This document shows, one piece after another, positions 9,141 to 42,657 of a stretch of 64,000 nt of DNA. Every line of letters begins with the position of its first letter. The first letter of the stretch is position 1. The stretch is taken from the NCBI GenBank assembly GCA_903877885.1, contig CAIRFN010000006.1, forward strand, positions 156,332-220,331, given 5' to 3'. Both the position numbers and the translations under genes were made by a program. Below the pieces are notes generated by a model. That model was given only the letters and a program-made list of their open reading frames with translations, did not search any database and was not told where the DNA came from. The DNA is from an uncultured Candidatus Berkelbacteria bacterium (GTDB lineage Bacteria > Patescibacteriota > UBA1384 > UBA12157).

Positions 9141-10043
9141 ATGAAAAAAATTGTCATTGCTCAACCGATGCATATGTATCCGGATCAAATCGAACGTTTG
9201 AAAAAATTGGGGTCTGTAACTTTTTACGACGAGTTTACTAAATCGTCAAATGAGTGGCTGGAGCGGGTCCAGGGCGCGGATATAATCTGTTCCAACAAGA
9301 CTGGTTTAAAGCAAAAAATCTATGATTTGGAAAATGTCTACATGTCGCTACCGTTTGTCGGCGTTGGTTGGATGGACCTAGAAAAACTAAAGGCCAGAAA
9401 TATTATTGTTTCCTGTTGCCCGGGTTGCAATAAAGAAGCAGTATCTGAATGGATGTTGACTATGATTTTGAATCTGGCTAGGGAAATTCCGGCCATGGTT
9501 AATAATGACAAAATGAAACGCAATTCCTGGACTGACAAAACCGGTTTAGCCGAAAAAAACGTGACGGTTTTAGGTCACGGCAATATCGGTTCGCGTATCG
9601 GCGAGGTTCTAAAAGTTTTATTGATGAATGTAACTTATTTTGACAAAGGCGATAATCTGTTGGAAAAAGTCAAAGATGCGGATTTTGTGGTTAATGCTTT
9701 AAGCGAAAACCCGGGGACGATTGGACTGCTGGACGCTGAATTTTTCCAGTCCCTAAAACAAGGCGTTTATTTTGTCACTATTACCAGTTCCACGCTCTAT
9801 GACGCTGATGCCATGATTAGCGAAATTAAATCCGGCCGGATTGCCGGCGCGGCCGATGATTGCGGCACAATCGATGTGGGCGACTCCAGCGATCCATATT
9901 ATTTGAAATTAACGGCTAATCTGAAGATTCTAACGACGCCGCATATTGCCGCCAGAACCGATGTGACTTGTCGCAAAAGTTACGATATGATGATTGATAA
10001 CATCGAACACTATCTCAAAGGCGAATTGATTAATTTAGTTTAA
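9141..10043 (+). CDS. D-isomer-specific 2-hydroxyacid dehydrogenase family protein
   Basis: NAD-binding VTVLGHGNIGSRIG and the catalytic region TPHIAARTD. Confidence 0.8.
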   Translation: MKKIVIAQPMHMYPDQIERLKKLGSVTFYDEFTKSSNEWLERVQGADIICSNKTGLKQKIYDLENVYMSLPFVGVGWMDLEKLKARNIIVSCCPGCNKEAVSEWMLTMILNLAREIPAMVNNDKMKRNSWTDKTGLAEKNVTVLGHGNIGSRIGEVLKVLLMNVTYFDKGDNLLEKVKDADFVVNALSENPGTIGLLDAEFFQSLKQGVYFVTITSSTLYDADAMISEIKSGRIAGAADDCGTIDVGDSSDPYYLKLTANLKILTTPHIAARTDVTCRKSYDMMIDNIEHYLKGELINLV

Positions 10044-10051
10044 AATAGATA

Positions 10052-10423
10052 TTATTTAGAACCAAATAAACGTTTCCAAAAACCAGGTTTTCTAACAACA
10101 TCTTCTTTTGGTGGTACGCCAACATAACCGATTTCGGTTACTTTGGGTTGCTCTTCTGCTGGTGTTCGATCGTAATGGCTAAAATCGGCTGAAAGCACAT
10201 TGCCATTCGCGTCGGTCATTGGTTTCTGCTCTGGCGCTATTGGTACAGCCATTCGATATTCTGGTTTTGGTTGTTTTGACGGATCTGGTACTTCTAAATG
10301 AGTTGGTCTAGAATTATTTTGAATTGTAGCTTCATCGCTTCCTACATTTTTATTTTCGTCTGTTCCGCTTTGACCTTCTTGTCGAGCAATTTCTTCCATA
10401 TCCATTCCCATGTTTTGTTCCAT
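10052..10423 (-). CDS. Hypothetical low-complexity (Pro/Glu/Gln-rich) protein
   Basis: 123-aa ORF with a disordered-type composition and an amphipathic C-terminus. Confidence 0.35.
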   Translation of the reverse strand: MEQNMGMDMEEIARQEGQSGTDENKNVGSDEATIQNNSRPTHLEVPDPSKQPKPEYRMAVPIAPEQKPMTDANGNVLSADFSHYDRTPAEEQPKVTEIGYVGVPPKEDVVRKPGFWKRLFGSK

Positions 10424-10479
10424 AAAACTCCTTTTTAATTTATTTAACTAAGTATATTTTAGTTCAATCATCATAAAAT

Positions 10480-10513
10480 CACAAATAAAAAACCGCCAAA
10501 TCAATTGGCGGCA
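10480..10513 (-). terminator. Intrinsic terminator overlapping the stop codon of the HTH protein gene
   Basis: ccgccaa-atca-ttggcgg hairpin followed on the minus strand by a U-run. Confidence 0.5.
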
Positions 10514-11187
10514 GAGTTTTGACTAATTCTTTTAATCAGTTTGGAAATTGTGGTTAAATGGACTAAAGTTGATTTAACAATTTTTTCCGCGGTAGCTTGT
10601 TTTTTACCGGCCAAACTAATAATTCTGGTGGCAAAAAGATTGATTAAATCTTTTGTTCTTTCTAAACTTTCGATGGCTGTTTCCTCGATTGATTTTTCCT
10701 TTCCGACAGAAATTATATCTTCCGGCGGGTTCAAATCGTAAATGGCATCGAGAATTTGATCTAAATCTTTTTGATCAAGTTTAGGCAAATGAACCAAGAT
10801 CGATTCTAATGTTATTGGTTCGACTACCAAAACTGTTGGCAATAAAATCGGCGCTTCAATTTCTACTACAGTTTTTCTACCAAGACGAGCCAAGGCAATT
10901 TCTTCGTTTTGTCGATTAATCTCTTTCTCTCGTTCGTAACAATCGGTTGGAATCAAACTTCGGTCAAGTTTAACTAAATCCACTAATTTTTCCATCCATT
11001 CGATTTTGACTAATCGGCCGGATTTCATCATTGAAACCGTACTTAACGGCACTTCGGCTTCGGCGCATAATTCTCTCTGTGCGAAACCTAGAGTTTTTCC
11101 TTTCTCGGCAATTAGTTCTGCCAGTTTCGCCAGCGTCAATGATTTGCCTTCAACCATTGTTTTCTCCTTATCGAATCGGACCACCAA
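10501..11187 (-). CDS. Hypothetical protein with an N-terminal XRE-like HTH
   Basis: LTLAKLAELIAEKGKTLGFAQRELCAEAEVPLSTVSMMKSGR is HTH-like; the rest is uncharacterised. Confidence 0.45.
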   Translation of the reverse strand: MVVRFDKEKTMVEGKSLTLAKLAELIAEKGKTLGFAQRELCAEAEVPLSTVSMMKSGRLVKIEWMEKLVDLVKLDRSLIPTDCYEREKEINRQNEEIALARLGRKTVVEIEAPILLPTVLVVEPITLESILVHLPKLDQKDLDQILDAIYDLNPPEDIISVGKEKSIEETAIESLERTKDLINLFATRIISLAGKKQATAEKIVKSTLVHLTTISKLIKRISQNSAAN

Positions 11188-11623: not shown

Positions 11624-11945
11624 TGGTGGAGCTGACGAGAATTGCACTCGTGTCCAAAAAGATTTTGACACAATTCTTTAAAAACAAGTTTAAATTTGTC
11701 TTCGTTTTTTCTTCTATCGACTAAGACAACCTAGATAGATATAGACCAAATTGTGACGCCCGTTCTCTCCGGTTGGTCATCAAAGAGACAGACGCTGCTG
11801 TAAAGCTTAAGCTATTAGGCTAGAGCTAAGGCAGGTGTAAACGTATTTTTTGCGTTTAACATTTTGCCATTTGATTTAACGAGTCAAAATGACGTGCTCG
11901 ACTTGAAATTGTGGGTTGATCTTCCTGTCGAATCTAAACAGCCCC
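11624..11945 (-). ncRNA. ssrA: tmRNA (SsrA), one-piece; predicted tag AKNTFTPALALA
   Basis: The minus-strand 5' end GGGGCUGUUUAGAUUCGACAGG matches the tmRNA acceptor strand plus the UUCGAC motif. The 3' end GGACACGAG-UGCAAUU-CUCGU-CAGCUCC-A-CCA parallels the E. coli 3' end, including the G3:U70 pair. The internal frame GCA AAA AAU ACG UUU ACA CCU GCC UUA GCU CUA GCC UAA UAG sits at plus 11812-11853. Confidence 0.85.
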
Positions 11946-13051: not shown

Positions 13052-13468
13052 TTAATTTAGTTCTCTGGCGGCGGTTCGGTTTAAATCGCGTTTTTTGAGT
13101 TCTTGCCGATGGTCATAGATTTTTTTGCCGCGAGCTAAGGCAATTTCTAATTTGGCATGGCCTTTTTTAATATAGAGCGCTAGAGGAATGAGCGATAAGC
13201 CTTTTTGTTGGGTTTTACCGATCAGCGAACGAATCTGACTTTTGTGAAGTAATAATTTGCGGCTGCGTTCCGGCTCTTTGACGAGAGAAATATGCATATT
13301 TAAAACCCAAGCCTCATTATCCGAAACACGACAAAAAGTGCCATTCAGATTGGCTCGATGAGCCCGAATCGCTTTAATCTCTTCGCCAGTCAAAACTAGT
13401 CCGGCTTCAAACTTTTCCAGAATTTCATATTCCAGATTGGCTAATTTGTTTTGAGCTATATATGACAT
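13052..13468 (-). CDS. smpB: SsrA-binding protein
   Basis: 138 aa with an SmpB-like N-terminal region (LVLTGEEIKAIR) and a basic C-terminal tail (GKKIYDHRQELKKRD). Confidence 0.9.
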   Translation of the reverse strand: MSYIAQNKLANLEYEILEKFEAGLVLTGEEIKAIRAHRANLNGTFCRVSDNEAWVLNMHISLVKEPERSRKLLLHKSQIRSLIGKTQQKGLSLIPLALYIKKGHAKLEIALARGKKIYDHRQELKKRDLNRTAARELN

Positions 13469-13527
13469 TAATATTATTGTACCTGAAAAATCCCCAAAAA
13501 ACTAGATTGCAAAATTGTGAATTTCTA

Positions 13528-13557
13528 ACCTCACCTCCACTTCCGAAGTGGCGGTGG
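13528..13557. repeat. REP-like palindromic element, copy A (core CCACTTCCGAAGTGG)
   Basis: acctcacctccacttccgaagtggcggtgg; a near-identical sequence recurs at 13996, 14711 and 40472. Confidence 0.75.
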
Positions 13558-13576
13558 TTGTGTTTATGAAATAAAA

Positions 13577-13599
13577 ACCTCATAAAAAATATGAGGTGT
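13577..13599 (-). terminator. Terminator hairpin downstream of the 90-aa ORF
   Basis: cctcata-aaaaa-tatgagg followed by a minus-strand U-run. Confidence 0.45.
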
Positions 13600-13635
13600 T
13601 TGTTTATGGTTGGAATAGTTTTGTTTTGTCTAATT

Positions 13636-13908
13636 TTATTTTTTAGCTCTTTCTCTCATTTCGTCTAAGCCACGATTTTTTTCTTCTTCCATGACAGCTT
13701 TCCAGGTTTGATTTAATCTGCTAGCAATTCGATCGGCGCGTTCTCTTCCATCTTCGCCACCACATGTTACTAATTCTGGTGGAATCGTAATAATTATGTG
13801 GGCGCCATCAGGGTAATCTGCGTGTACGCATTGGAGTTTAAAAGGACCATCAGTTGAAGCCCTTTTAACTCCTTCAGGAAGCCATTGCATCAAATTCTCA
13901 TTTGCCAC
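13636..13908 (-). CDS. Hypothetical small protein between two REP copies
   Basis: 90-aa ORF with no recognisable domain, bounded by REP A and REP B. Confidence 0.4.
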   Translation of the reverse strand: MANENLMQWLPEGVKRASTDGPFKLQCVHADYPDGAHIIITIPPELVTCGGEDGRERADRIASRLNQTWKAVMEEEKNRGLDEMRERAKK

Positions 13909-13995
13909 GGAATATCTCCTTTATGTAAGGGGTGTTTTGCTAATTTAAATATAACAAAATTTAAATCCAAAGCAATAGATTATCTTACGAATTAA

Positions 13996-14025
13996 ACCTC
14001 GCTTCCACTTCCGAAGTGGCGGTGG
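13996..14025. repeat. REP-like palindromic element, copy B
   Basis: acctcgcttccacttccgaagtggcggtgg, 12 nt upstream of the transposase ATG. Confidence 0.75.
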
Positions 14026-14037
14026 TAGAATATAGCT

Positions 14038-14706
14038 ATGAGAAAAGATCCGTTGGTTAATGGACAATGTTATCATATATTCAGTCGAAGCATTGCTAAA
14101 TATATTATTTTTAATAATAGCAGTGACTTTGAGAGGTTGATTGAGCTCATCGATCTTTATCGATTTAATGATTTTTTTTATAAATACTCAGGTTTTCTTG
14201 AGCTAAATGCTTTTTTTAGATTAAAATATGTAGAAGGTTTGAAACTAACGAGTTCAAAATCAGTTGAAATAATTTCTTATTCAATCATGCCGACTCATAT
14301 TCATTTAACACTTAAACAATTAGTGGATGGTGGGATTTCGAAATATATGGCAAAGATTTTGAATAGTTATACTCGATATTTTAATATTCAACATCAGAGA
14401 AAAGGCCCGTTGTGGGAGGGAAAATTTCAAAGCGTCTTAGTCAATGACGACGATCAGTTATTGCATTTAACCAGATATCATCATCTTAATCCTGTTTCGG
14501 CAGGGCTAGTTACTAAACCAGAAGATTGGACTTACTCGTCTTATAAAGAATATCTTGATGATCTAGAGGTAGATGGCTTTTGTGATTTTAAGGATCTAAT
14601 TGTTTTCAATCGTGACCAATATAAAAAATTTGTTGAAGACCGAATTGATTATCAAAAGAAATTATCAGAAATAAAACATTTAATATTTAACGATTATAGT
14701 GGTTAA
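14038..14706 (+). CDS. REP-associated tyrosine transposase (RAYT) / IS200-like HuH transposase, COG1943 family
   Basis: N-terminal YHIFSRSIAKYIIF (compare YHVxxRG..IF), HuH motif MPTHIHLTL, and a C-terminal LTRYHHLNPVSAGLV..PEDWTYSSY that resembles RayT DYIYINPVKHGWV..SDWPFSTF, including the catalytic Tyr. It is flanked by REP copies. Confidence 0.7.
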   Translation: MRKDPLVNGQCYHIFSRSIAKYIIFNNSSDFERLIELIDLYRFNDFFYKYSGFLELNAFFRLKYVEGLKLTSSKSVEIISYSIMPTHIHLTLKQLVDGGISKYMAKILNSYTRYFNIQHQRKGPLWEGKFQSVLVNDDDQLLHLTRYHHLNPVSAGLVTKPEDWTYSSYKEYLDDLEVDGFCDFKDLIVFNRDQYKKFVEDRIDYQKKLSEIKHLIFNDYSG

Positions 14707-14710
14707 TTTA

Positions 14711-14743
14711 ACCTCACCTCCACTTCCGAAGTGGCGGTGAGGT
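14711..14743. repeat. REP-like palindromic element, copy C (full outer stem ACCTCAC/GTGAGGT)
   Basis: acctcacctccacttccgaagtggcggtgaggt, directly after the transposase stop. Confidence 0.75.
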
Positions 14744-14781
14744 TTGACAAAATTGGAAAGCTTTCGTAGTATGGAATTACT

Positions 14782-15207
14782 ATGACTATTAAATTTCAAA
14801 AACTTTTTCCAGATGTAATCTTGCCAGGTTATACTCATGCTGCAGATGCCGGCATGGATTTGCGAACGCGTGAAGCTAAAATTTTGGCGCCAGGCGAACG
14901 ATATTGTTTTAAAACCGGTTTTGCTATGGCTATTCCCGATGGCTATGTTGGTTTAGTTTGGGACCGATCTGGATTAGCGCTCAAAGAAGGTTTAACTTGT
15001 TTGGCCGGCGTAGTTGATTCTGGCTACCGAGGTGAAGTTGGCGTTGTTGCGCTAAACACATCTGACAAAAATATTGAAATTGAAGTAAATGATCGCGTTG
15101 CGCAAATGTTAATCCAACCAGTCGAAATTTGTGAAATAGAAGTTGTCGATGAATTATCAAATAGCGAGAGGGGCGAAGGAGGCTTTGGTGCCAGCGGAAA
15201 AAAATGA
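14782..15207 (+). CDS. dut: dUTP diphosphatase
   Basis: GVVDSGYRGEV and [10 protein letters not shown] motifs; 141 aa. Confidence 0.9.
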   Translation: MTIKFQKLFPDVILPGYTHAADAGMDLRTREAKILAPGERYCFKTGFAMAIPDGYVGLVWDRSGLALKEGLTCLAGVVDSGYRGEVGVVALNTSDKNIEIEVNDRVAQMLIQPVEICEIEVVDELSNSERGEGGFGASGKK

Positions 15208-15811
15208 ATTTAAACCTTGGAAACGTCTCTCTTGGGACGAGTTTTTTATGCGCATCGCCATTACCGCGACCGGGCGTGTTTCTTGCAATTACCATCGAAT
15301 TGCCTCTGTTTACGTTGATGATGATCATAAAATAATTTCGATTGGCTACAATGGTCCGTCGGTTGGTGACTACGATGGCAATGTTTATGGTTGCGCTAAA
15401 GTTGATGGCGACCCGATGTCTGGCGAAATTCGCCGTTGTCGCGGTGTTCACAGCGAAGTTAACGGTATTATCAATGCTTTTGACACGCGCAGACTTAAAA
15501 ACGCCACGCTCTACATTACTCAATTTCCTTGTTATGACTGCATGAAAGTTTTGAATAACGTCGGGATTAAAAAAATTATTTATCTTCATAATTATTTACG
15601 AGTTAAAGATGGCTCGGACGGTAATGATCGCCATCCTGAACCGGAAGCCATTGAGCTCGCGCATCGTAGAGGGATTATTTTAGAGCAATTTAGATTTGCC
15701 GATGACGCGGTTTTTGATTTTCCGGACGAAAAAAAGCGTGTTGATGAAGTTAATAATTTTAAAAAAGAATCGGTTAAAAAAACGATCGAGGATCATGAAT
15801 CAAGATTTTAA
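15188..15811 (+). CDS. dCMP deaminase (ComEB-type cytidine/deoxycytidylate deaminase)
   Basis: Zinc motifs HSEVNGI (H-x-E) and PCYDC; the N-terminus is [13 protein letters not shown] start at 15188 is preferred (GGAGG 5 nt upstream). The frame is open from 15143 and overlaps the end of dut. Confidence 0.8.
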
Positions 15812-15822
15812 AAAGGAGAAAA

Positions 15823-16812
15823 ATGCCAGAGAAAATAAAGTTGAAGTTGACCGATGAAACACATCCCGAATATCAATATTTGAATTTAATTAAAGATATT
15901 CTTGCTAACGGGTCTGATAAGCCGCTTTTTGGTCATGAAGGCGAAGAAATTTTTATTCGCAGTGTTTTTGGTCGCCAAACTCGATATGACCTTTCTAAAG
16001 GTTTCCCTCTTCTTACAACCAAAAAAGTTTTTATGCGTGGGATTATTCATGAACTTTTGTGGTTTTTAAAAGGCGATTCTAATATTAAATATCTGGTTGA
16101 TAATGATGTTCATATCTGGGACGAATGGGCTTACAAATACTATAATATTGCTGCCAAAAAAGGCGAAGTCTTAAAATTAACTCAAGAAGAATTTATTGCC
16201 AAAATTAAAGAATTGCCGGCTGATGATCCGAGTGTTAAGCGTTGGGGCGATTTAGGCAACGTTTATGGTGTGCAATGGAGGAAATGGCAGACTGGTGATG
16301 GTCGTTTTATCGATCAGCTGGCTTGGGCAATTAGCGAATTAAAAACCAACCCATATCGTAAATCGATTATGGTTTCGGCTTGGAATCCAGAGTTTATTTA
16401 CGAGATGGCCTTGCCAGGCAAATCCATGGCTATTGCGCCGTGCCATACTATCTATCAGTTTGTGGTTAATAACGATAAATTATCATTACAACTTTACCAA
16501 CGCAGTGCTGATACCTTTTTGGGCGTGCCGTTTAATATTGCTAGCTATGCTTTATTAACCATGATGGTGGCTCAAGTTATTGGGTTAAAACCAGGAGAAT
16601 TTGTTCATACTTTTGGTGATGTTCATCTGTATTCCAATCATTTTGAACAAGCCAAAGAACAAATTGAGCGCGAGCCAAAGCCTTTCCCAACCATGAAAAT
16701 TAATCCAAAAGTTAAGAATATCGATGATTTTAAATTTGAAGATTTCGAAGTCGTGGGTTACGATCCGCATCCGCCTATCAAAGGTGACATTACCGTAATC
16801 GGAGGATTTTAA
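15823..16812 (+). CDS. thyA: Thymidylate synthase (ThyA)
   Basis: RYDL, the active-site PCH in [10 protein letters not shown], and [16 protein letters not shown]; 329 aa. Confidence 0.9.
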
Positions 16813-17304
16813 TTGAATAAACCAAAAATTAGCATCATTGTGGCTGTGGGTAAAAACCGAGAGATTGGTAAAAATAATCAACTCCTTTGGCATTTGCCGG
16901 AAGATTTAAAACGGTTTAAGGAGCTGACCACCAATCATCCGATTATTATGGGTGAGCGGACGTTCAATTCCATCGGCCGGGTTTTGCCAAATCGGACCAA
17001 TATTGTTTTGTCGCAAGATGCTAATTTAAAAATTGATGGGGCGATTGTTTGCAGTTCAATTCCCAAAGCAATCGAAGTGGCCCAAAAACACGATGACGAG
17101 GAAATCTTTATTATTGGTGGCGCTTCGATTTACGCTCAAACCATCGATTTGGCTGATAAGTTGTATCTCACTTTGGTGGACCAAAACTTTGATGCCGATG
17201 TCTTTTTCCCGGATTACTCAAAATTTGATAAAATAATATCAGAAAGCGAATTGCAACAATCTGGCGATTTATCATTCAAATATTTAGTTTTAGAAAGAGG
17301 TTAA
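16813..17304 (+). CDS. folA: Dihydrofolate reductase
   Basis: [31 protein letters not shown] and IIMGERTF; 163 aa. Confidence 0.85.
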
Positions 17305-17305
17305 T

Positions 17306-18550
17306 GTGAATTTAAAAAAACAAGATCCGGAAATTTTTAATATCATCGAATCGGAAAAAAAGCGACAGGTTGAAGGTTTGGAAATGATTGCCTCGGAAAA
17401 CTATGTTTCCGAAGCGGTTTTGGAAGCTACGGGCTCGGTTTTAACCAATAAATATGCTGAAGGCTATCCAGGCGCTCGCTACTATGGCGGCTGCGAATTT
17501 ATTGATCAAGCCGAGAGTTTAGCCATTACTAGGCTCAAAAAATTATTCAAATGCAAATTTGCCAATGTTCAACCTCATTCTGGTTCATCAGCCAATATGG
17601 CGGCTTATGCCGCTTTAATCAAACCCGGTGACAAAATTCTCGGTCAAGGTATGGATTCTGGTGGCCATTTGACTCATGGCGCGAAAGTCTCTTTCTCTGG
17701 AAAGTGGTTCGAATCTGTTTCTTATGGTCTCGATCCGGAAACCGGGGTTTTAAATTACGATGAAATCTTAAAAATCGCTAAACGTGAAAAACCAAAAGTA
17801 ATCATGTGTGGCTATTCCGCTTATCCAAGAAAAATCGATTTTAAAAAGTTTCGAGAAATCGCCGATTCGGTTGGCGCCTATTTAATTGCTGATATTGCCC
17901 ATATCGCCGGATTGGTTGCTACCGGTTATCATGAATCGCCAATTGGCGTGGCCGATATCGTTACCAGTACCACCCACAAGACCTTGAGAGGCCCTCGTTC
18001 AGGTATAATCATGACAAATGATGAAGAACTAGCCAAGAAAATTGATAAGGCGGTTTTCCCCATGCTTCAAGGTGGACCATTAGAACATGTTATTGCCGCT
18101 AAAGCGGTGGCTTTTGGTGAAGATTTGCTTCCGGAATATAAAAAATACATCAAGCAAGTTTTGGTTAATATGAAAACTTTTGCCAAGACTTTGCAAAGTT
18201 TTGATTTTGATTTAGTCACCGGCGGTACGGAAAATCATTTGATTTTAGTGGATTTAAGAAATAAAAATTTAACCGGAGTCGATTTTCAACACGCTTTGGA
18301 AGAAGCCGGGATTTCGGTCAATAAAAACGGCATTCCCAATGACCCAAATCCGCCGAAAGTTACTTCTGGTATTCGGGTTGGTACCGCTGCCCTTACTACT
18401 CGCGGTATGGGCGAAACCGAAATGAAACGCATTGCCGAATTATTTAACATCGTGGCAGAAAATATCAATAATCCAAAAGTTTTAGCCAAGGTTAAAAAAG
18501 AAGTAAAACAAATGACTAAAAACTTTCCGGTGCCGGGAATAAAATCATGA
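17306..18550 (+). CDS. glyA: Serine hydroxymethyltransferase
   Basis: ASENYVS, the PLP lysine context [12 protein letters not shown], and length 414 aa. Confidence 0.9.
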
Positions 18551-19128
18551 ACAAACTAATTTGTTTGGTTGGAATGCCGGGGGCTGGTAAGTCGGCTGTG
18601 TCCGAATATCTATTATCCAAAAAAGATTTTGGTTATTTTCGGTTTGGTCAAATTGTGCTCGATAAAGTGATCGAAAGCGGCCAACCTCAATCCGAAGAAT
18701 TAGAGCGGAAAATTCGCGAAGATATTCGTACTGAACACGGCATGGCCGCCATGGCGATTTTAAATTTACCAAAAATCGAATTACTGATTAAAAAAGGTGA
18801 TGTGATTGGCGACGGCCTGTATTCTTGGGAAGAATATTTATTTTTGAAAGAAAAATTTGGCGATAATTTAATTATTGTTGCGATTTATTCTTCGCCTAAA
18901 CTTAGATATTCACGGTTAGAAAATCGAGCTGAAAAACATGGCGTTGACACAGAACTTAAATTTAGAAGTTTTACAGAAGATGAAGTTAAAACTCGCGATC
19001 GGGCGGAAATCGAAAATTTGCATAAAGCTGGTCCGATCGCCATGGCCGATTATACTTTAATCAACACCACGACTCTCAAAAACTTACAATCTCAAATCGA
19101 TCAAGTCCTCACGGAAATATACAAATAG
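18547..19128 (+). CDS. P-loop nucleotide/nucleoside kinase-like protein (shikimate-kinase/AAA_18-like fold), function unassigned
   Basis: Walker [11 protein letters not shown]; 193 aa. It overlaps the glyA stop and closes the thymidylate cluster. Confidence 0.5.
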
Positions 19129-37625: not shown

Positions 37626-40439
37626 ATGAAAGACAAAATTGTCATCCATGGCGCTCGCGCCCACAACCTAAAAAACGTGACTGTTAGTATTCCTCGTGAT
37701 GAATTAGTTGTTATCACCGGCCTTTCCGGCTCGGGTAAATCATCACTGGCCTTTGACACTTTATATATGGAAGGCCAACGCCGCTATGTGGAAAGTTTAT
37801 CCAGTTACGCTCGTCAATTTTTAGGTAATTTGGAAAAACCGGATGTCGATTTTATTGAAAATTTGTCTCCTTCAATCTCGATTGATCAGCGTTCAGCCAC
37901 CCAAAATCCGCGTTCAACTGTTGGTACTATTACTGAAATTTACGATTATTTAAGATTGTTGTTTTCAAGAATCGGTCATCCACATTGTCCACAATGCTCA
38001 AAAGAATTAGTTCGTCAACAGCCACAAGAAATTGCCGTGACAATCAAGAAAGATTTTGATTTGGAATCAGGCAAGGCTAATGTTCTAATTTTAGCTCCAG
38101 TGGTTCGTAAACAAACCGGCGAACATAAATATATCTTAAGTAAACTTCGCGCTCAAAAAATTACTCGAGTTCGAATTGATGATATTTTGATGGATTTGGT
38201 TGAAGCTTTGATGCTAACTTTGGAAAAAAGCAAACTTCACACTATTGAAGCAGTTGTGGCTCAAGTAAATCCGAATGAATTGCTTGAAGAAGCCAAATTT
38301 GAAAAACAAATTGAAAAAGCTCTTGAAATGGGTGATGGTCAAATTACGGTTAAAGATTTAACGACTGATGATGAAAAAAAATATTCTAAACATTTTACAT
38401 GTAACAAATGTGGGACGATTCTGGAAGAATTACAACCAAGAATTTTCAGTTTTAACTCGCCATATGGCGCCTGTCCATCGTGCCAAGGTTTGGGTGTAAA
38501 AATGGAAATCGACCCAAAGTTGGTGATTCCAAATCCTCGTTTAACTTTAGCCGAAGGGGCAATTCGACCTTGGGCAAGAATCACTAGCCGTGCCAACTGG
38601 CATAATAAAGCTTTGCAAGAATTATCAGCCAAATATAAATTCTCGCTCGATGACGCTGTCGAAGATTTGCCGAAAAAAGTGGTTAACATTATTCTTTATG
38701 GTGATATGAAAGACGGCGGTACATTTGAAGGTGTTATTCCCAACTTTGAAGCCCGCTATGATGAAACTGATTCTGATTATTTAAAGACTGAAATTGAAAA
38801 ATACATGGTGGAAAAAGTTTGTCCAACCTGTCACGGCCAAAGACTCCGTCCAGAAGTTTTAAATATCACTCTGGATAACAAAAACATTGTTGATGTGACC
38901 AGTATGAATATCGAAAAACTGTTAGAATATTTCAAAGAACTATCCCAAAGCAAGAATTTGAAAGATTTTGAACAAATGATCGCCGGCCAGATTATTAAAG
39001 AAGTACGCGAACGGTTGCAGTATTTGTGCGATGTTGGTTTGGGTTATTTAACCTTAGACCGTAATGCCAGCACTTTAGCTGGTGGCGAGGCCCAACGAAT
39101 TCGACTGGCGACTCAACTCGGCACCGGGCTGATGGGTGTGGTTTATGTGCTTGACGAACCATCAATCGGACTTCATCCGCGTGATCATGACAAAATGTTG
39201 AAAACTTTGAATACCTTGAAAGAACTTGGTAATACGGTGGTGGTGGTTGAACACGATCAAGCTACGATCGAAGCCGCGGACTGGGTCATTGATATGGGTC
39301 CAGGCGCTGGCGATCACGGTGGTTTGGTTTGCGCTGAAGGTACTTTGGAGGATATTAAAAACAATCCAAATTCACCAACCGGTTTGTATTTGTCTGGCAA
39401 AAAAGAAATTGCTATTCCAAAACATCGCCGACCACAGACCGACGCGCAAATTGTAGTTAAAGGTGCGCAAGAATTTAATCTTAAAAATATCGATGTCGCG
39501 ATTCCACTTAATAATTTTGTGGTTGTTTCCGGTGTTTCCGGATCTGGAAAATCAACCTTGATTTTGGATATTTTAGCCAAGGACTTGGCTCGCCAATTAC
39601 ATCACGCCAAAGAACCAGTTGGCAAGCATAAATCCATTTCTGGCGTTAAATATTTAGATAAAGTTATTTCCATTGATCAGTCGCCAATCGGCCGCACACC
39701 TCGAAGTAATACCGCGACTTATACTAATTTGTTTATGCCAATTCGGGAATTATTTGCCAACACGCCGGAATCAATCACACGCAAATATGAAGCGGCTAAA
39801 TTCAGTTTTAACCTTCGTGGTGGCCGTTGTGAAAATTGTCGCGGGGACGGATCACTAAAAATCGAAATGCATTTTTTACCTGATGTTTATATGCCTTGCC
39901 CAGAATGTAAGGGCAAACGTTATAATAAAGAAGTTTTGGAAATTACCTGGCGTGACAAAACCATTGCTGATGTTTTGGAGATGTCAGTTGAAGAAGCTTT
40001 AGCTTTCTTTGCTGGCGAAACTGAAATTATCGACAAACTTAAGGTTTTGGAAGCTGTTGGTTTAGGCTATATGCATCTTGGTCAACCAGCCACTATGCTT
40101 TCGGGTGGAGAGGCACAACGCATTAAACTGGCGACCGAGCTGTCACGTCATGATACTGGCAAAACTTTGTATATTCTAGATGAACCAACAACCGGTTTGC
40201 ATTTTGAAGATATCAAACGTTTGTTGGCAGTTTTACAGGCTTTGGTTGATAAAGGTAATACTGTGGTGGTAATTGAGCATAATCTTGATGTAATGAAATC
40301 GGCTGACTGGATTATTGATATGGGCCCAGAGGGCGGCGACAAGGGCGGTCAAATGGTTGGCGCTGGCACACCGGAACAAATCGCCAAACTCAAAGAATCC
40401 TACACCGGTAAATATTTAAAAGATTTTTTAAAAAAATAA
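37626..40439 (+). CDS. uvrA: Excinuclease ABC subunit A
   Basis: Two ABC modules ([12 protein letters not shown] and [10 protein letters not shown]), zinc-finger Cys clusters; 937 aa. Confidence 0.95.
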
Positions 40440-40464
40440 ATAGAATTAGAATAAATTAAACCTG

Positions 40465-40495
40465 AAAAAGTCCACTTCCGAAGTGGGCTTTTTGG
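40465..40495 (+). terminator. uvrA intrinsic terminator built on the same CCACTTCCGAAGTGG core as the REP elements (copy D)
   Basis: aaaaag-tccacttccgaagtggg-cttttt. Confidence 0.6.
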
Positions 40496-40517
40496 GTATT
40501 AAAATTAAATTATTTTT

Positions 40518-42321: not shown

Positions 42322-42657
42322 TACGAAAAAAGCCTTAAGTAATCGATAAGCCAGGTTCTGTTTAGGCAGCATCTATCTTCGCGTCGGACCCAGTGGACAT
42401 CTGTCGAGCAGACATTGATGATAATGGGCCATCCGACTTGCACCGAGCTAGGCTTGCCACAGACATACATTACTGTATGAACGCGTGAGCTCTTACCTCA
42501 CGATTTCAACCTTACCTCCGCGGTTAGCGGATCGGCGGTATATTTTCTGTTGCGCTGTTCTCGAACCTCACGGCCCGCTCATTTTCACGAGCGCTGTACT
42601 CTTTGGTGCCTGGACTTTCCTCACTCTTGCGAGCGGAACTGCCTCGATTACTTAAGG
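42322..42657 (-). ncRNA. rnpB: RNase P RNA
   Basis: The minus-strand reading contains GAGGAAAGUCCAGGCACC (the conserved GGAAAGUCCGGGCUCC region) and ACAGAACCUGGCUUAUCG (the conserved 3' region). A 13-bp P1 helix CCUUAAGUAAUCG/CGAUUACUUAAGG is followed by a U-run. Confidence 0.8.

What the first reader, a model, noticed from the sequence alone, without database searches (positions are those of the whole stretch)
13528..14743. REP-RAYT module: IS200-like HuH transposase flanked by three copies of a palindromic REP element, plus a fourth copy serving as the uvrA terminator
The 222-aa protein at 14038-14706 carries the HuH motif (HIHL), the COG1943 N-terminal YHIF..IF block, and the C-terminal RYHHLNPV..EDW..SSY block that matches RayT. 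It sits between two near-identical 30-nt palindromic elements (13996-14025 and 14711-14743). A third copy lies at 13528-13557, and the same core forms the intrinsic terminator of uvrA at 40465-40495. That layout is the signature of a REP/RAYT system, described mainly in Proteobacteria; finding it in this reduced AT-rich genome, with REPs doubling as terminators, is notable. All four copies are in direct orientation, rather than the inverted REPIN doublets usually seen. The 90-aa ORF trapped between REP A and REP B may be cargo.
Basis: partly seen in the sequence, partly recalled or inferred. Interest (0 to 1): 0.6.

Follow-up and report, generated by a model that had tools for sequence, protein, structure and literature searches.

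The report
RAYT-like gene with private flanking hairpins
A small candidate-phyla (Berkelbacteria-like) genome carries a domesticated-looking relative of the REP-associated tyrosine transposases, bracketed by its own palindromic DNA hairpins; it belongs to a large hairpin-flanked family not described in the literature I could search, but it is a low-copy variant of a known kind of system, not a new one.

Summary
CCACTTCCGAAGTGG occurs four times in 64 kb, all on the + strand, against 0.06 expected. Three copies sit around the 222-aa ORF and one is in the uvrA terminator.

The ORF is a Y1 HuH enzyme:
- It passes Pfam Y1_Tnp.
- Its best solved relative by sequence and by fold is E. coli TnpA-REP (4ER8).
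- H87/H89, Y147 and N151 are invariant in 110 homologues.
- It misses NCBIfam's RAYT cut-off (60.7 vs 80 bits).
- Its hairpins carry a TAACC foot instead of the canonical GTAG.

In 12 of 12 homologous loci the gene is bracketed by a lineage-specific palindrome, with compensatory stem changes between lineages. A second copy, inferred to lie in the same genome, has its own different hairpin.

An orthologue with 69% identity sits at the same smpB–dut position, and it has diverged about as much as its neighbours. That argues for vertical inheritance and against an active IS.

Dispersal is minimal. Only one copy in the window lies away from the gene, so a large REP population is not shown.

The 90-aa ORF has no homologues and is missing from the syntenic locus, so it is an insertion between duplicated upstream hairpins.

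Verdict: a REPtron-like module, a low-copy variant of a known kind, of moderate interest.

The parts
13527..13559 (+). REP A. A hairpin copy with a degraded 3' arm, lying about 60 nt from the smpB start. It occupies the position of the single upstream hairpin in the syntenic locus L022.
13577..13597 (.). Ordinary A/T-flanked hairpin (ACCTCAT-loop-ATGAGGT). It is the terminator of the 90-aa ORF and is not a REP copy.
13636..13908 (-). 90-aa ORFan with a GTG start preceded by AAGGAG. It lies between REP A and REP B. It has no homologue among 5.8 billion proteins and is absent from the syntenic locus, so it is a lineage-specific inserted cassette.
13995..14025 (+). REP B, the upstream hairpin of the RAYT-like gene. 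Its 3' arm runs into the gene's promoter.
14023..14031 (+). Extended -10-like element TGGTAGAAT, 6 nt before the ATG. This implies a leaderless mRNA. The same TGGTAnnAT-type (TGCTATAAT in L023) element, 6-7 nt before the ATG, is seen in L022, L012, L005, L016, L023, L024 and L014. This is read from the sequence and is inferred, not shown.
   Evidence: The simple promoter scan did not list it, because no -35 is present.
14038..14706 (+). 222-aa Y1 HuH protein of the RAYT class. HuH is H87-I-H89, the catalytic tyrosine is Y147 in RYHHLNP, and N151 is the metal ligand. A conserved C-terminal extension of about 75 aa ends in DYSG.
14710..14744 (+). REP C, the downstream hairpin starting 4 nt after the stop codon. 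It is a near-perfect 35-nt palindrome (AACCTCACC-T-CCACTT-CCG-AAGTGG-C-GGTGAGGTT).
14744..14772 (+). dut promoter-like site (TTGACA-17-TAGTAT). Its -35 abuts or overlaps the 3' foot of REP C. The TTGACA after the hairpin is also present in L022.
40459..40497 (+). Fourth copy. It has the same 15-nt apex, TAAACCT flank and outer foot, with the middle stem replaced by A5G/CT5. It has the shape of a bidirectional intrinsic terminator and lies between uvrA (+, ends 40439) and a convergent gene (-, ends 40518).

Best explanation
This is a REPtron-like module. A vertically inherited, single-copy RAYT-class Y1 HuH enzyme is bracketed by its own cognate imperfect palindromes. It belongs to a large family of proteins about 220 aa long, found across Patescibacteria (candidate phyla radiation, CPR).

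Inferred mechanism, by analogy with E. coli TnpA-REP:
- The protein binds the hairpin form of the palindrome on single-stranded DNA. The conserved features it would recognise are the apical CACYT/ARGTG stem, the internal mismatch and the TAACC foot.
- It cleaves and rejoins nearby DNA using Y147 and the metal held by H87, H89 and N151.

In this lineage the activity has produced only a few copies. There are the two gene-flanking hairpins, a duplicated upstream hairpin that now encloses an inserted ORFan cassette, and one distant copy that has been reshaped into the uvrA terminator.

The upstream hairpin overlaps the gene's own promoter, which appears to drive a leaderless mRNA. Protein binding there would probably auto-repress the gene.

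What is shown: the fold and catalytic residues, the hairpin-gene association, the co-variation, the synteny and the low local copy number. What is inferred: binding, cleavage, auto-regulation and how the extra copies arose.
For: Protein:
- Pfam Y1_Tnp scores 28.1 bits against a cut-off of 23.
- The best NCBIfam match is REP_Tyr_transpos, E 1.4e-16.
- The best PDB hit by sequence is 4er8 TnpA-REP, E 5.7e-4 for the single sequence and 5.5e-7 for the profile.
- The AF2 model has pLDDT 92, and its best fold match is 4er8_A (E 2.5e-8, TMt 0.71), ahead of the ISDra2 and IS608 TnpA structures.
- H87, H89, Y147 and N151 align with H59, H61, Y115 and N119 of TnpA-REP (PMC3479197) and are invariant in 110 homologues.
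- The Y---NP motif is the class-2 (RAYT) signature (PMC6006769).

Hairpins:
- In 12 of 12 loci the same lineage-specific palindrome lies on both sides of the gene.
- The architecture is shared and the middle stem changes in a compensatory way between lineages.
- The two flanking copies change together. In L022 both carry CCACTCCCGAAGTGG.
It has a different hairpin, CCCACCTCCAGGGTGGG.

Inheritance:
- L022 shows the same CHAP-smpB-gene-dut order. Divergence of the gene (69% identity) matches its neighbours: SmpB 70%, dUTPase 63%, CHAP 52%.
- P0057 and P0080 are syntenic between gatCAB-htrA and prfA-rpmE.

Chance is excluded for the four window copies.
Against: - The protein is below the NCBIfam RAYT equivalog cut-off, 60.7 against 80 bits.
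- There is no GT[AG]G tetranucleotide at the hairpin foot.
- Only one copy in 64 kb lies away from the gene. Flanks of 10-20 kb in the other loci show no copies further than about 2 kb from the gene. REP dissemination, the defining behaviour of RAYT systems, is therefore barely visible.
- The whole-genome count could not be obtained.
- No biochemical evidence exists for this family.
- The gene's G+C (0.30) is below the window mean (0.38). That could hint at a foreign origin.
- Family members sit in at least five different genomic contexts, so the unit has moved over long timescales.
Confidence: 0.75

Rival explanations
1. It is an active IS200/IS605-type insertion sequence. REP B and REP C would be its left-end and right-end subterminal hairpins on one strand, and the whole unit would transpose through a single-stranded circle.
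For: - The gene is bracketed by same-strand hairpins, as in IS200/IS605.
- Its fold also matches the IS608 and ISDra2 TnpA structures.
- Family members lie in several different contexts, always with both hairpins.
- The gene's G+C is low, 0.30 against 0.38.
Against: - An orthologue with 69% identity occupies the identical smpB-dut site, and it has diverged as much as its neighbours.
- A second syntenic pair exists.
- The exact protein was found in only one locus context across 16 contigs.
- Paralogues are only 55-58% identical and each has a different hairpin.
- The Y motif is Y---NP, not the Y---Q of IS200 (PMC6006769).
- There is no tnpB.
- NCBIfam transpos_IS200 scores 13 bits against a cut-off of 55.
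- In 5 of 11 loci with both flanks readable, the flanking hairpins are inverted rather than direct.
Confidence: 0.1
2. It is a canonical REP/REPIN system. The hairpin would be present in tens to hundreds of extragenic copies across the genome, spread by this RAYT, and the window simply happens to be poor in copies.
For: - The RAYT-class protein carries flanking cognate palindromes.
- One dispersed copy lies at uvrA.
- A dispersed copy of the P0093-type hairpin lies between convergent genes in L015.
- Assembled contigs break exactly at the hairpins in L004, L006 and L021.
Against: - A scan for family-type hairpins finds only the four copies in 64 kb, which holds about 70 genes.
- No copies lie more than about 2 kb from the gene in about 130 kb of flanks from other loci.
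- No inverted REPIN doublets are seen.
- There is no GTAG foot.
- The contig breaks are explained by the local copies alone.
Confidence: 0.1
3. The palindromes are ordinary regulatory or terminator hairpins with no functional link to the protein. Their similarity would reflect local duplication only.
For: - The uvrA copy looks like a normal bidirectional terminator.
- REP C sits at the 3' end of the gene, and REP B overlaps a promoter.
Against: - In 12 of 12 loci, across 34-69% protein identity, the same lineage-specific palindrome lies on both sides of the gene.
- The apical stem and TAACC foot are conserved, the middle stem changes in a compensatory way, and the two copies evolve in concert.
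- REP A, B and C lack T-runs.
Confidence: 0.05

Closest known systems
E. coli TnpA-REP (RAYT, YafM) and its REPtron; subclass 2.2 of Quentin et al. 2018, Group 2 of Bertels et al. 2017; structure 4ER8
   Same: - The Y1 HuH fold is shared and 4ER8 is the best structural and sequence match.
- The HuH histidines, the catalytic Tyr and the Asn ligand align (PMC3479197).
- The Y---NP motif is present.
- The gene is single-copy and flanked by cognate imperfect palindromes that carry an internal mismatch. That mismatch is required for binding in E. coli (PMC3479197).
- There is a C-terminal extension beyond the IS200 core.
   Different: - Only about 15% identity in the structural alignment.
- It is below the NCBIfam equivalog cut-off.
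- The protein is 222 aa against 165 aa, with a longer, differently structured C-terminal region.
- The metal ligand H123 is replaced by Ala.
- The hairpin foot is TAACC, not GTAG.
- No abundant REP or BIME population is visible.
- The flanking copies are single hairpins, not REPIN pairs.
Subclass 2.1 TnpA-Y1 / TIRYT 'TIRtrons' (Di Nocera 2013; Quentin 2018; Bertels Group 1)
   Same: - The Y motif RY[IH]HLNP fits the subclass signature Y[IV]HLNP.
- The length, about 220-240 aa with a C-terminal extension, is similar.
- Genomic copy number is low, paralogues are divergent, and flanking repeats are low-abundance (PMC6006769 Table 1; PMC5581495; PMC3733652).
   Different: - The HuH context is THIH, not NH[VYF]H.
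- Pfam finds no Bac_DnaA_C or HTH domain in the C-terminus.
- The flanking repeats are self-complementary hairpins with a TAACC foot, not TIRs with GGGGWSAS.
- Subclass 2.1 was reported as having no REP-like structures.
- No direct sequence comparison with named subclass 2.1 members was possible here.
IS200/IS605 TnpA (IS608, ISDra2)
   Same: - The Y1 HuH fold is shared.
- The subterminal imperfect hairpins lie on the same strand on both sides of the gene, as in this window.
   Different: - The motif is Y---NP, not Y---Q.
- NCBIfam transpos_IS200 scores 13 bits against a cut-off of 55.
- The gene is single-copy and held in synteny.
- There is no tnpB.

Membership tests
Y1 HuH (TnpA-Y1) superfamily, Pfam PF01797 | [quoted passage not shown] | tested here: met
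   28.1 bits against 23. H87-I-H89 and Y147 are invariant in 110 homologues. The fold matches 4er8, 2xo6 and 2vjv.
Class 2 TnpA-Y1 (RAYT-type; Quentin 2018) | Y motif Y---NP rather than the Y---Q of IS200 | tested here: met
   The motif is RYHHLNP. Y147, L150 and N151 are invariant. The signature comes from PMC6006769. P152 is replaced by A in some paralogues, including P0093 and P0057.
Canonical RAYT (NCBIfam NF047646 REP_Tyr_transpos, equivalog) | Score at or above the curated cut-off of 80 bits | tested here: not met
   60.7 bits, E 1.4e-16. It is the best NCBIfam hit but falls below the cut-off.
REP/RAYT system (REPtron) | The gene is flanked by cognate palindromic repeats that are specific to each paralogue | tested here: met
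   12 of 12 loci. Paralogue P0093 has a different hairpin.
REP/RAYT system (REPtron) | Canonical REP with a 5' GT[AG]G tetranucleotide at the hairpin foot | tested here: not met
   The foot is TAACC/TAACA in all lineages.
REP/RAYT system (REPtron) | Cognate repeat abundant and dispersed in extragenic space, with tens to hundreds of copies, often as inverted REPIN doublets | tested here: inconclusive
   One dispersed copy in 64 kb and no doublets.
REP/RAYT system (REPtron) | Low copy number, divergent paralogues and mainly vertical inheritance (Bertels 2017) | tested here: met
   There is one locus context for the exact protein. Paralogues are 55-58% identical. There are two syntenic orthologue pairs, and divergence is like that of the neighbouring genes.
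REP/RAYT system (REPtron) | The protein binds and cleaves its REP as single-stranded DNA | not testable with these tools
   Needs biochemistry. It is inferred only from conserved catalytic residues and the 4ER8 homology.
IS200/IS605 insertion sequence | Several near-identical copies per genome, a Y---Q motif, and often a tnpB partner | tested here: not met
   transpos_IS200 scores 13.2 bits against 55. The motif is Y---NP. There is no tnpB nearby. No second copy is present in the window.
TIRYT / subclass 2.1 | C-terminal HTH (Bac_DnaA_C-like) domain and flanking TIRs with GGGGWSAS | tested here: not met
   Pfam finds no C-terminal domain. The model shows a short helix and then two longer helices, at 169-173, 192-200 and 203-217. 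The flanks are hairpins without GGGGWSAS.

The most novel reading that the evidence does not exclude
In candidate-phyla bacteria this RAYT family may no longer be a REP disseminator. It may instead be a domesticated, auto-regulated single-strand DNA enzyme whose private hairpins act as local recombination sites that capture genes.

The basis is a recurring layout, in which an extra hairpin copy upstream of the gene encloses foreign or variable genes:
- In this window, an ORFan.
- In L019, a methyltransferase. The syntenic L014 has two pilin-like genes there instead.
- In L005, two genes.

Hairpin apices may also be co-opted into terminators, as at uvrA.
Probability: 0.15. Interest if true: 0.65.

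Novelty: new variant of a known kind. Interest (0 to 1): 0.42.

Why it matters
RAYTs are the textbook case of a domesticated transposase whose benefit to the host is unknown. They have been studied almost only in Proteobacteria and Cyanobacteria.

This family has features that make it a useful comparison:
- It is found across Patescibacteria. There are at least 212 clusters at 50% identity with E <= 1e-30.
- It is kept in very small genomes, in at least two and possibly three divergent copies, each with its own hairpin.
- It evolves at a rate like that of housekeeping genes.
- It has almost no dispersed repeats.

If that holds genome-wide, the enzyme is retained for something other than spreading REPs. 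The small size of the system, one gene and two to four hairpins, would make that question easier to test than in E. coli or Pseudomonas.

The conserved hairpin architecture (TAACC foot, variable stem with a mismatch, CACYT apex) gives a concrete substrate for biochemistry.

Tried and rejected
- Genome-wide copy count. I scanned genome contigs and metagenome contigs with the 20-mer CCACTTCCGAAGTGGCGGTG. They returned 3 and 2 single hits, in unrelated high-GC contexts with no flank similarity. These are chance matches. The source genome is not in either collection, so the whole-genome count could not be made.
- Strain comparison. L001-L004 come from other samples and are 100% identical over the locus, so they give no information on REP copy-number polymorphism.
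- Other RNA or repeat explanations. Rfam has no family on the hairpins. The repeat finder shows no other convincing repeat family in the window. A generic scan for family-type hairpins (CACYT-loop-ARGTG) found only the four known copies.
- The 90-aa ORF. It has no Pfam, NCBIfam or PHROG hit and no homologue, so its function is unknown.
- UUCG-tetraloop idea for the minus-strand transcript. Rejected on inspection: the pairing does not support a C(UUCG)G loop, and the fold is a 6-bp apex with a 3-nt loop.
- A second copy of the gene in the window. None was found.
- Literature. I found no paper in the held library linking RAYT or REP to Patescibacteria/CPR. This library is limited, so this does not prove that the association is undescribed.
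- Similarity after REP A. The sequence after REP A (…ATGAAATAAAAACC) resembles the start of the gene (ATGAGAAAAGATCC). It is too short and AT-rich to be significant, so I treat it as a hint only.
Full report
**1. The observation**

The 15-mer CCACTTCCGAAGTGG occurs four times in the 64-kb window, at 13537, 14005, 14720 and 40472. All four are on the + strand. With up to two mismatches allowed, dinucleotide shuffles give a mean of 0.06 matches and none reaches the observed count.

Read in full, the elements are:

| Element | Coordinates | Sequence |
|---|---|---|
| REP A | 13527-13559 | AACCTCACCTCCACTTCCGAAGTGGCGGTGGTT |
| REP B | 13995-14025 | AACCTCGCTTCCACTTCCGAAGTGGCGGTGG |
| REP C | 14710-14744 | AACCTCACCTCCACTTCCGAAGTGGCGGTGAGGTT |
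| uvrA copy | 40459-40497 | (see below) |

- REP C is a near-perfect palindrome with a 9-bp outer stem, a T.C mismatch, a 6-bp apex and a 3-nt loop. As DNA it folds at -14.4 kcal/mol (z = -6.7).
- REP A and REP B have degraded 3' arms, at -8.2 and -5.6 kcal/mol.
- The uvrA copy keeps three things: the TAAACCT 5' flank (AATTAAACCT when compared with REP B alone), the T before the apex, and the whole 15-nt apex with the outer ACC/GGT foot.
- Its middle stem is AAAAAG/CTTTTT. That gives a bidirectional terminator shape between uvrA (ends 40439) and a convergent gene (ends 40518).
- REP A, B and C have no T-run, and the terminator scan does not call them. 'REPs doubling as terminators' is therefore true only of the fourth copy.

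**2. The protein**

- The ORF 14038-14706 encodes 222 aa. It passes Pfam Y1_Tnp at 28.1 bits against a cut-off of 23.
- Its best NCBIfam hit is REP_Tyr_transpos (60.7 bits, E 1.4e-16). That is below the curated equivalog cut-off of 80. The IS200 model scores only 13 bits.
- The best solved relative by sequence is E. coli TnpA-REP, 4ER8. The E-value is 5.7e-4 for the single sequence and 5.5e-7 for a profile of 110 homologues.
- An AlphaFold model built on that alignment is confident (mean pLDDT 92, pTM 0.88). Its best fold match is again 4er8_A (E 2.5e-8, TM 0.71 on the target), ahead of the ISDra2 and IS608 transposases.
- In the profile alignment, H87/H89 align with H59/H61, Y147 with the catalytic Y115, and N151 with the metal ligand N119. 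The residue roles come from PMC3479197. All four residues are invariant in 110 homologues.
- The Y motif RYHHLNP has the Y---NP signature of class 2 (RAYT-type) proteins, not the Y---Q of IS200 (PMC6006769 Table 1).
- Within class 2 the motif is closest to subclass 2.1 (Y[IV]HLNP). However, the HuH context (THIH), the lack of a detectable C-terminal HTH and the presence of flanking hairpins do not fit that subclass.

**3. The family**

- The word-indexed search finds more than 2,000 relatives. The best 120 are 53-69% identical and 216-310 aa long, mostly 219-230 aa. The named ones come from Berkelbacteria, Woykebacteria, 'Patescibacteria group' and one 'WS2' bin.
- The exhaustive search of 50%-identity representatives gives 212 clusters at E <= 1e-30, matching over nearly the full length. 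There are 6,221 clusters at E <= 1e-10.
- The more distant members include Shapirobacteria and Gottesmanbacteria.
- Conservation extends beyond the catalytic core to a C-terminal region of about 75 residues that ends in D-x-Y-x-G.

**4. Is the hairpin association real across the family?**

I fetched DNA around eleven homologues with 34-69% identity. In every locus the gene is bracketed by one lineage-specific palindrome present on both sides.

| Locus | Protein | Flanking palindrome core |
|---|---|---|
| L022 | P0002 | CCACTCCCGAAGTGG |
| L012 | P0007 | CACT(T/C)(A/C)CACTTCCGAAGTG… |
| L024 | P0003 | GCACCTCC(G/A)AGGTGC |
| L023 | P0005 | GCACCCTCAGGGTG(C) |
| L005 | P0093 | CCCACCTCCAGGGTGGG |
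| L014/L015 | P0057 | CCTACCTCCGAGGTCG |
| L016 | P0066 | ATTTACACCTACGAGGTGTAAAT |
| L019 | P0080 | GACACCTACGAGGTGTC |
| L018 | P0099 | CCACTCC(G/C)GGAGTGG |
| L020 | P0225 | CACCTCCGAGGTG |
| L021 | P0274 | CAACCTCGGGGGTTG |

Sources.

Laid out from the symmetry axis, the 28 hairpins share the following:
- All 28 have an odd axis with a central C or G.
- Most have an apical stem of the form CACYT/ARGTG.
- Most have an internal mismatch 6-9 bp from the axis.
- Most have an outer TAACC…GGTT foot.
- The stem between apex and foot differs between lineages through changes on both arms.

The two copies flanking a gene also change together. Both L022 copies carry the same T-to-C change relative to the window. 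This is what co-evolution of a protein with its DNA substrate looks like. It is not what independent terminators would show.

P0093 is reported with the same longest contig (445,016 bp) as this gene and the ORFan. I therefore infer that it is a paralogue in the same genome, and it has its own, different hairpin. A P0093-type hairpin with one mismatch also lies between convergent genes in L015, the contig that carries a third relative, P0057.

**5. Mobile element or resident gene?**

- L022 carries the 69%-identical orthologue in the same order: CHAP-smpB-gene-dut-dCMP deaminase. The gene has diverged as much as its neighbours (SmpB 70%, dUTPase 63%, CHAP 52%).
- P0057 and P0080 are likewise syntenic, in the order ligA-gatCAB-DUF5654-htrA-…-gene-prfA-rpmE-rpsB-tsf-frr.
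- P0093, P0007, P0066 and P0003 all lie near miaA and/or comM.
- The exact protein was seen in a single locus context across 16 contigs, and no second copy is in the window.
- These are the properties Bertels et al. use to separate RAYTs from insertion sequences (PMC5581495).
- Over long timescales the unit has clearly occupied different sites, always with both hairpins. The hairpin-gene-hairpin unit was therefore mobile at some point.

**6. How many copies?**

A scan for any family-type hairpin finds only the four known copies in the window, which holds about 70 genes. In the other loci, all extra copies lie within about 2 kb of the gene.

Scans of the genome and metagenome collections with the 20-mer returned only chance hits, so the source genome is not there. 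The genome-wide number is unknown. On present evidence this is a low-copy system. It is closer to the low-abundance flanking repeats of Bertels Groups 1 and 4, or the 'atypical secondary structures' of Quentin subclasses 2.6 and 3, than to E. coli or Pseudomonas REPs.

**7. Local anatomy and what it suggests**

- The 3' arm of REP B runs into TGGTAGAAT (14023-14031), an extended -10-like element that ends 6 nt before the ATG. The same TGGTAnnAT-type (TGCTATAAT in L023) element, 6-7 nt before the ATG, is present in L022, L012, L005, L016, L023, L024 and L014.
- I infer a leaderless mRNA and a promoter that the hairpin-binding protein could occlude. L018, L019 and L020 differ, so this design is common but not universal.
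- The 3' foot of REP C abuts the TTGACA of a good dut promoter, and L022 keeps this arrangement.
- In L022 there is one upstream hairpin about 65 nt from smpB and no 90-aa ORF. In the window REP A occupies that position, REP B sits before the gene, and both have the 'upstream-type' 3' end GGCGGTGGT.
- The segment between them holds an ordinary terminator (13577-13597) and the 90-aa ORF.
- That ORF has a Shine-Dalgarno sequence. It has no family hit and no homologue among 5.8 billion proteins.
- I read this as a cassette inserted at a duplicated upstream hairpin.
- A similar layout recurs. L019 has a methyltransferase between two hairpin copies, where the syntenic L014 has two pilin-like genes. 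L005 has two genes between hairpin copies. Whether the enzyme caused these insertions is speculation.

**8. Mechanism, with its status**

- Shown: a conserved Y1 HuH active site of RAYT type; cognate, co-evolving, imperfect palindromes at both ends of the gene; vertical inheritance; low local copy number.
- Inferred from the E. coli TnpA-REP work (PMC3479197): the protein binds the folded hairpin on single-stranded DNA. The stem mismatch is probably a recognition feature, since it is required in E. coli.
- Also inferred from that work: the protein cleaves nearby DNA through Y147 with a metal held by H87, H89 and N151, and it can rejoin strands.
- Also inferred: the conserved C-terminal extension may regulate activity, as the E. 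coli tail does.
- Inferred from anatomy: auto-repression through REP B, occasional local copying of hairpins, and remodelling of one distant copy into the uvrA terminator.

**9. Comparison and novelty**

It works like a REPtron. As a member of the canonical REP/RAYT family it fails two tested criteria: the NCBIfam equivalog cut-off and the GT[AG]G foot. A third criterion, an abundant dispersed REP population, is unresolved and looks unlikely. I therefore file it as a variant within class 2 Y1 proteins, not as a canonical RAYT and not as an IS200.

I found no paper in the held library that links RAYTs or REPs to Patescibacteria. These proteins are already annotated as 'IS200-like transposase' in public records. 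The general idea of diverse RAYT subclasses with their own repeat types is established (PMC6006769, PMC3733652).

Interest is moderate. The family is large and is conserved in very small genomes, in at least two copies each with a private hairpin. That bears on the open question of what RAYTs do for their hosts. Nothing here contradicts current understanding.

Noticed in passing
window 13636-13908 (-): The 90-aa ORF has a good Shine-Dalgarno sequence (AAGGAG) and its own terminator. It has no homologue among 5.8 billion proteins and no family hit. Its G+C is 0.42 against 0.38 for the window. It is absent from the syntenic locus L022.
   Followed up: yes
window 14744-14784: The dut gene has a near-consensus promoter (TTGACA-17-TAGTAT) that ends only 9 nt before its ATG, with no Shine-Dalgarno sequence. 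Like the RAYT-like gene, it may be transcribed as a leaderless or nearly leaderless mRNA. This may be common in this genome.
   Followed up: no
window 14782-19128: A compact thymidylate and one-carbon gene cluster lies directly downstream of the module: dUTPase, dCMP deaminase, thymidylate synthase, DHFR, SHMT and a kinase-like AAA protein. The paralogue P0093 also sits next to a cytidine/deoxycytidylate-deaminase-family gene (L005 2064-2531). This is probably coincidence.
   Followed up: no
window 11624-11945 (-) and 13052-13468 (-): A tmRNA gene (Rfam, 123.7 bits) lies about 1.1 kb from smpB, with a CHAP-domain gene between them. RNase P RNA is at 42331-42655 (-), and there are five tRNA genes in the window.
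   Followed up: no
L020 10678-10690 (inside the gene 10001-10729): In the Gottesmanbacteria homologue (242 aa, longer than the family norm), a copy of the cognate hairpin lies inside the annotated 3' end of the gene, with another just after it. This recalls the in-gene REP insertions reported for Quentin subclass 2.4.
   Followed up: no
L019 9218-9958 compared with L014 5198-6680: Between htrA and the RAYT-like gene, one genome has a methyltransferase bracketed by two hairpin copies. The syntenic genome has two pilin-like (N_methyl) genes and no extra hairpin. The slot upstream of the gene is therefore variable.
   Followed up: partly
L004, L006 and L021 contig ends: Short assembled contigs begin or end exactly inside the hairpins. 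The palindromes break de Bruijn assemblies, which may cause these modules to be under-assembled in metagenome bins.
   Followed up: no
window 39228-39323 and 40254-40349: A 96-nt direct repeat with 71% identity lies inside uvrA. It is the expected internal duplication of the two ABC ATPase halves, not a mobile repeat.
   Followed up: no
window 14038-14706: The RAYT-like gene has a markedly lower G+C (0.30) than the window (0.38) and than its neighbour smpB (0.41), despite evidence of long residence at this site.
   Followed up: partly
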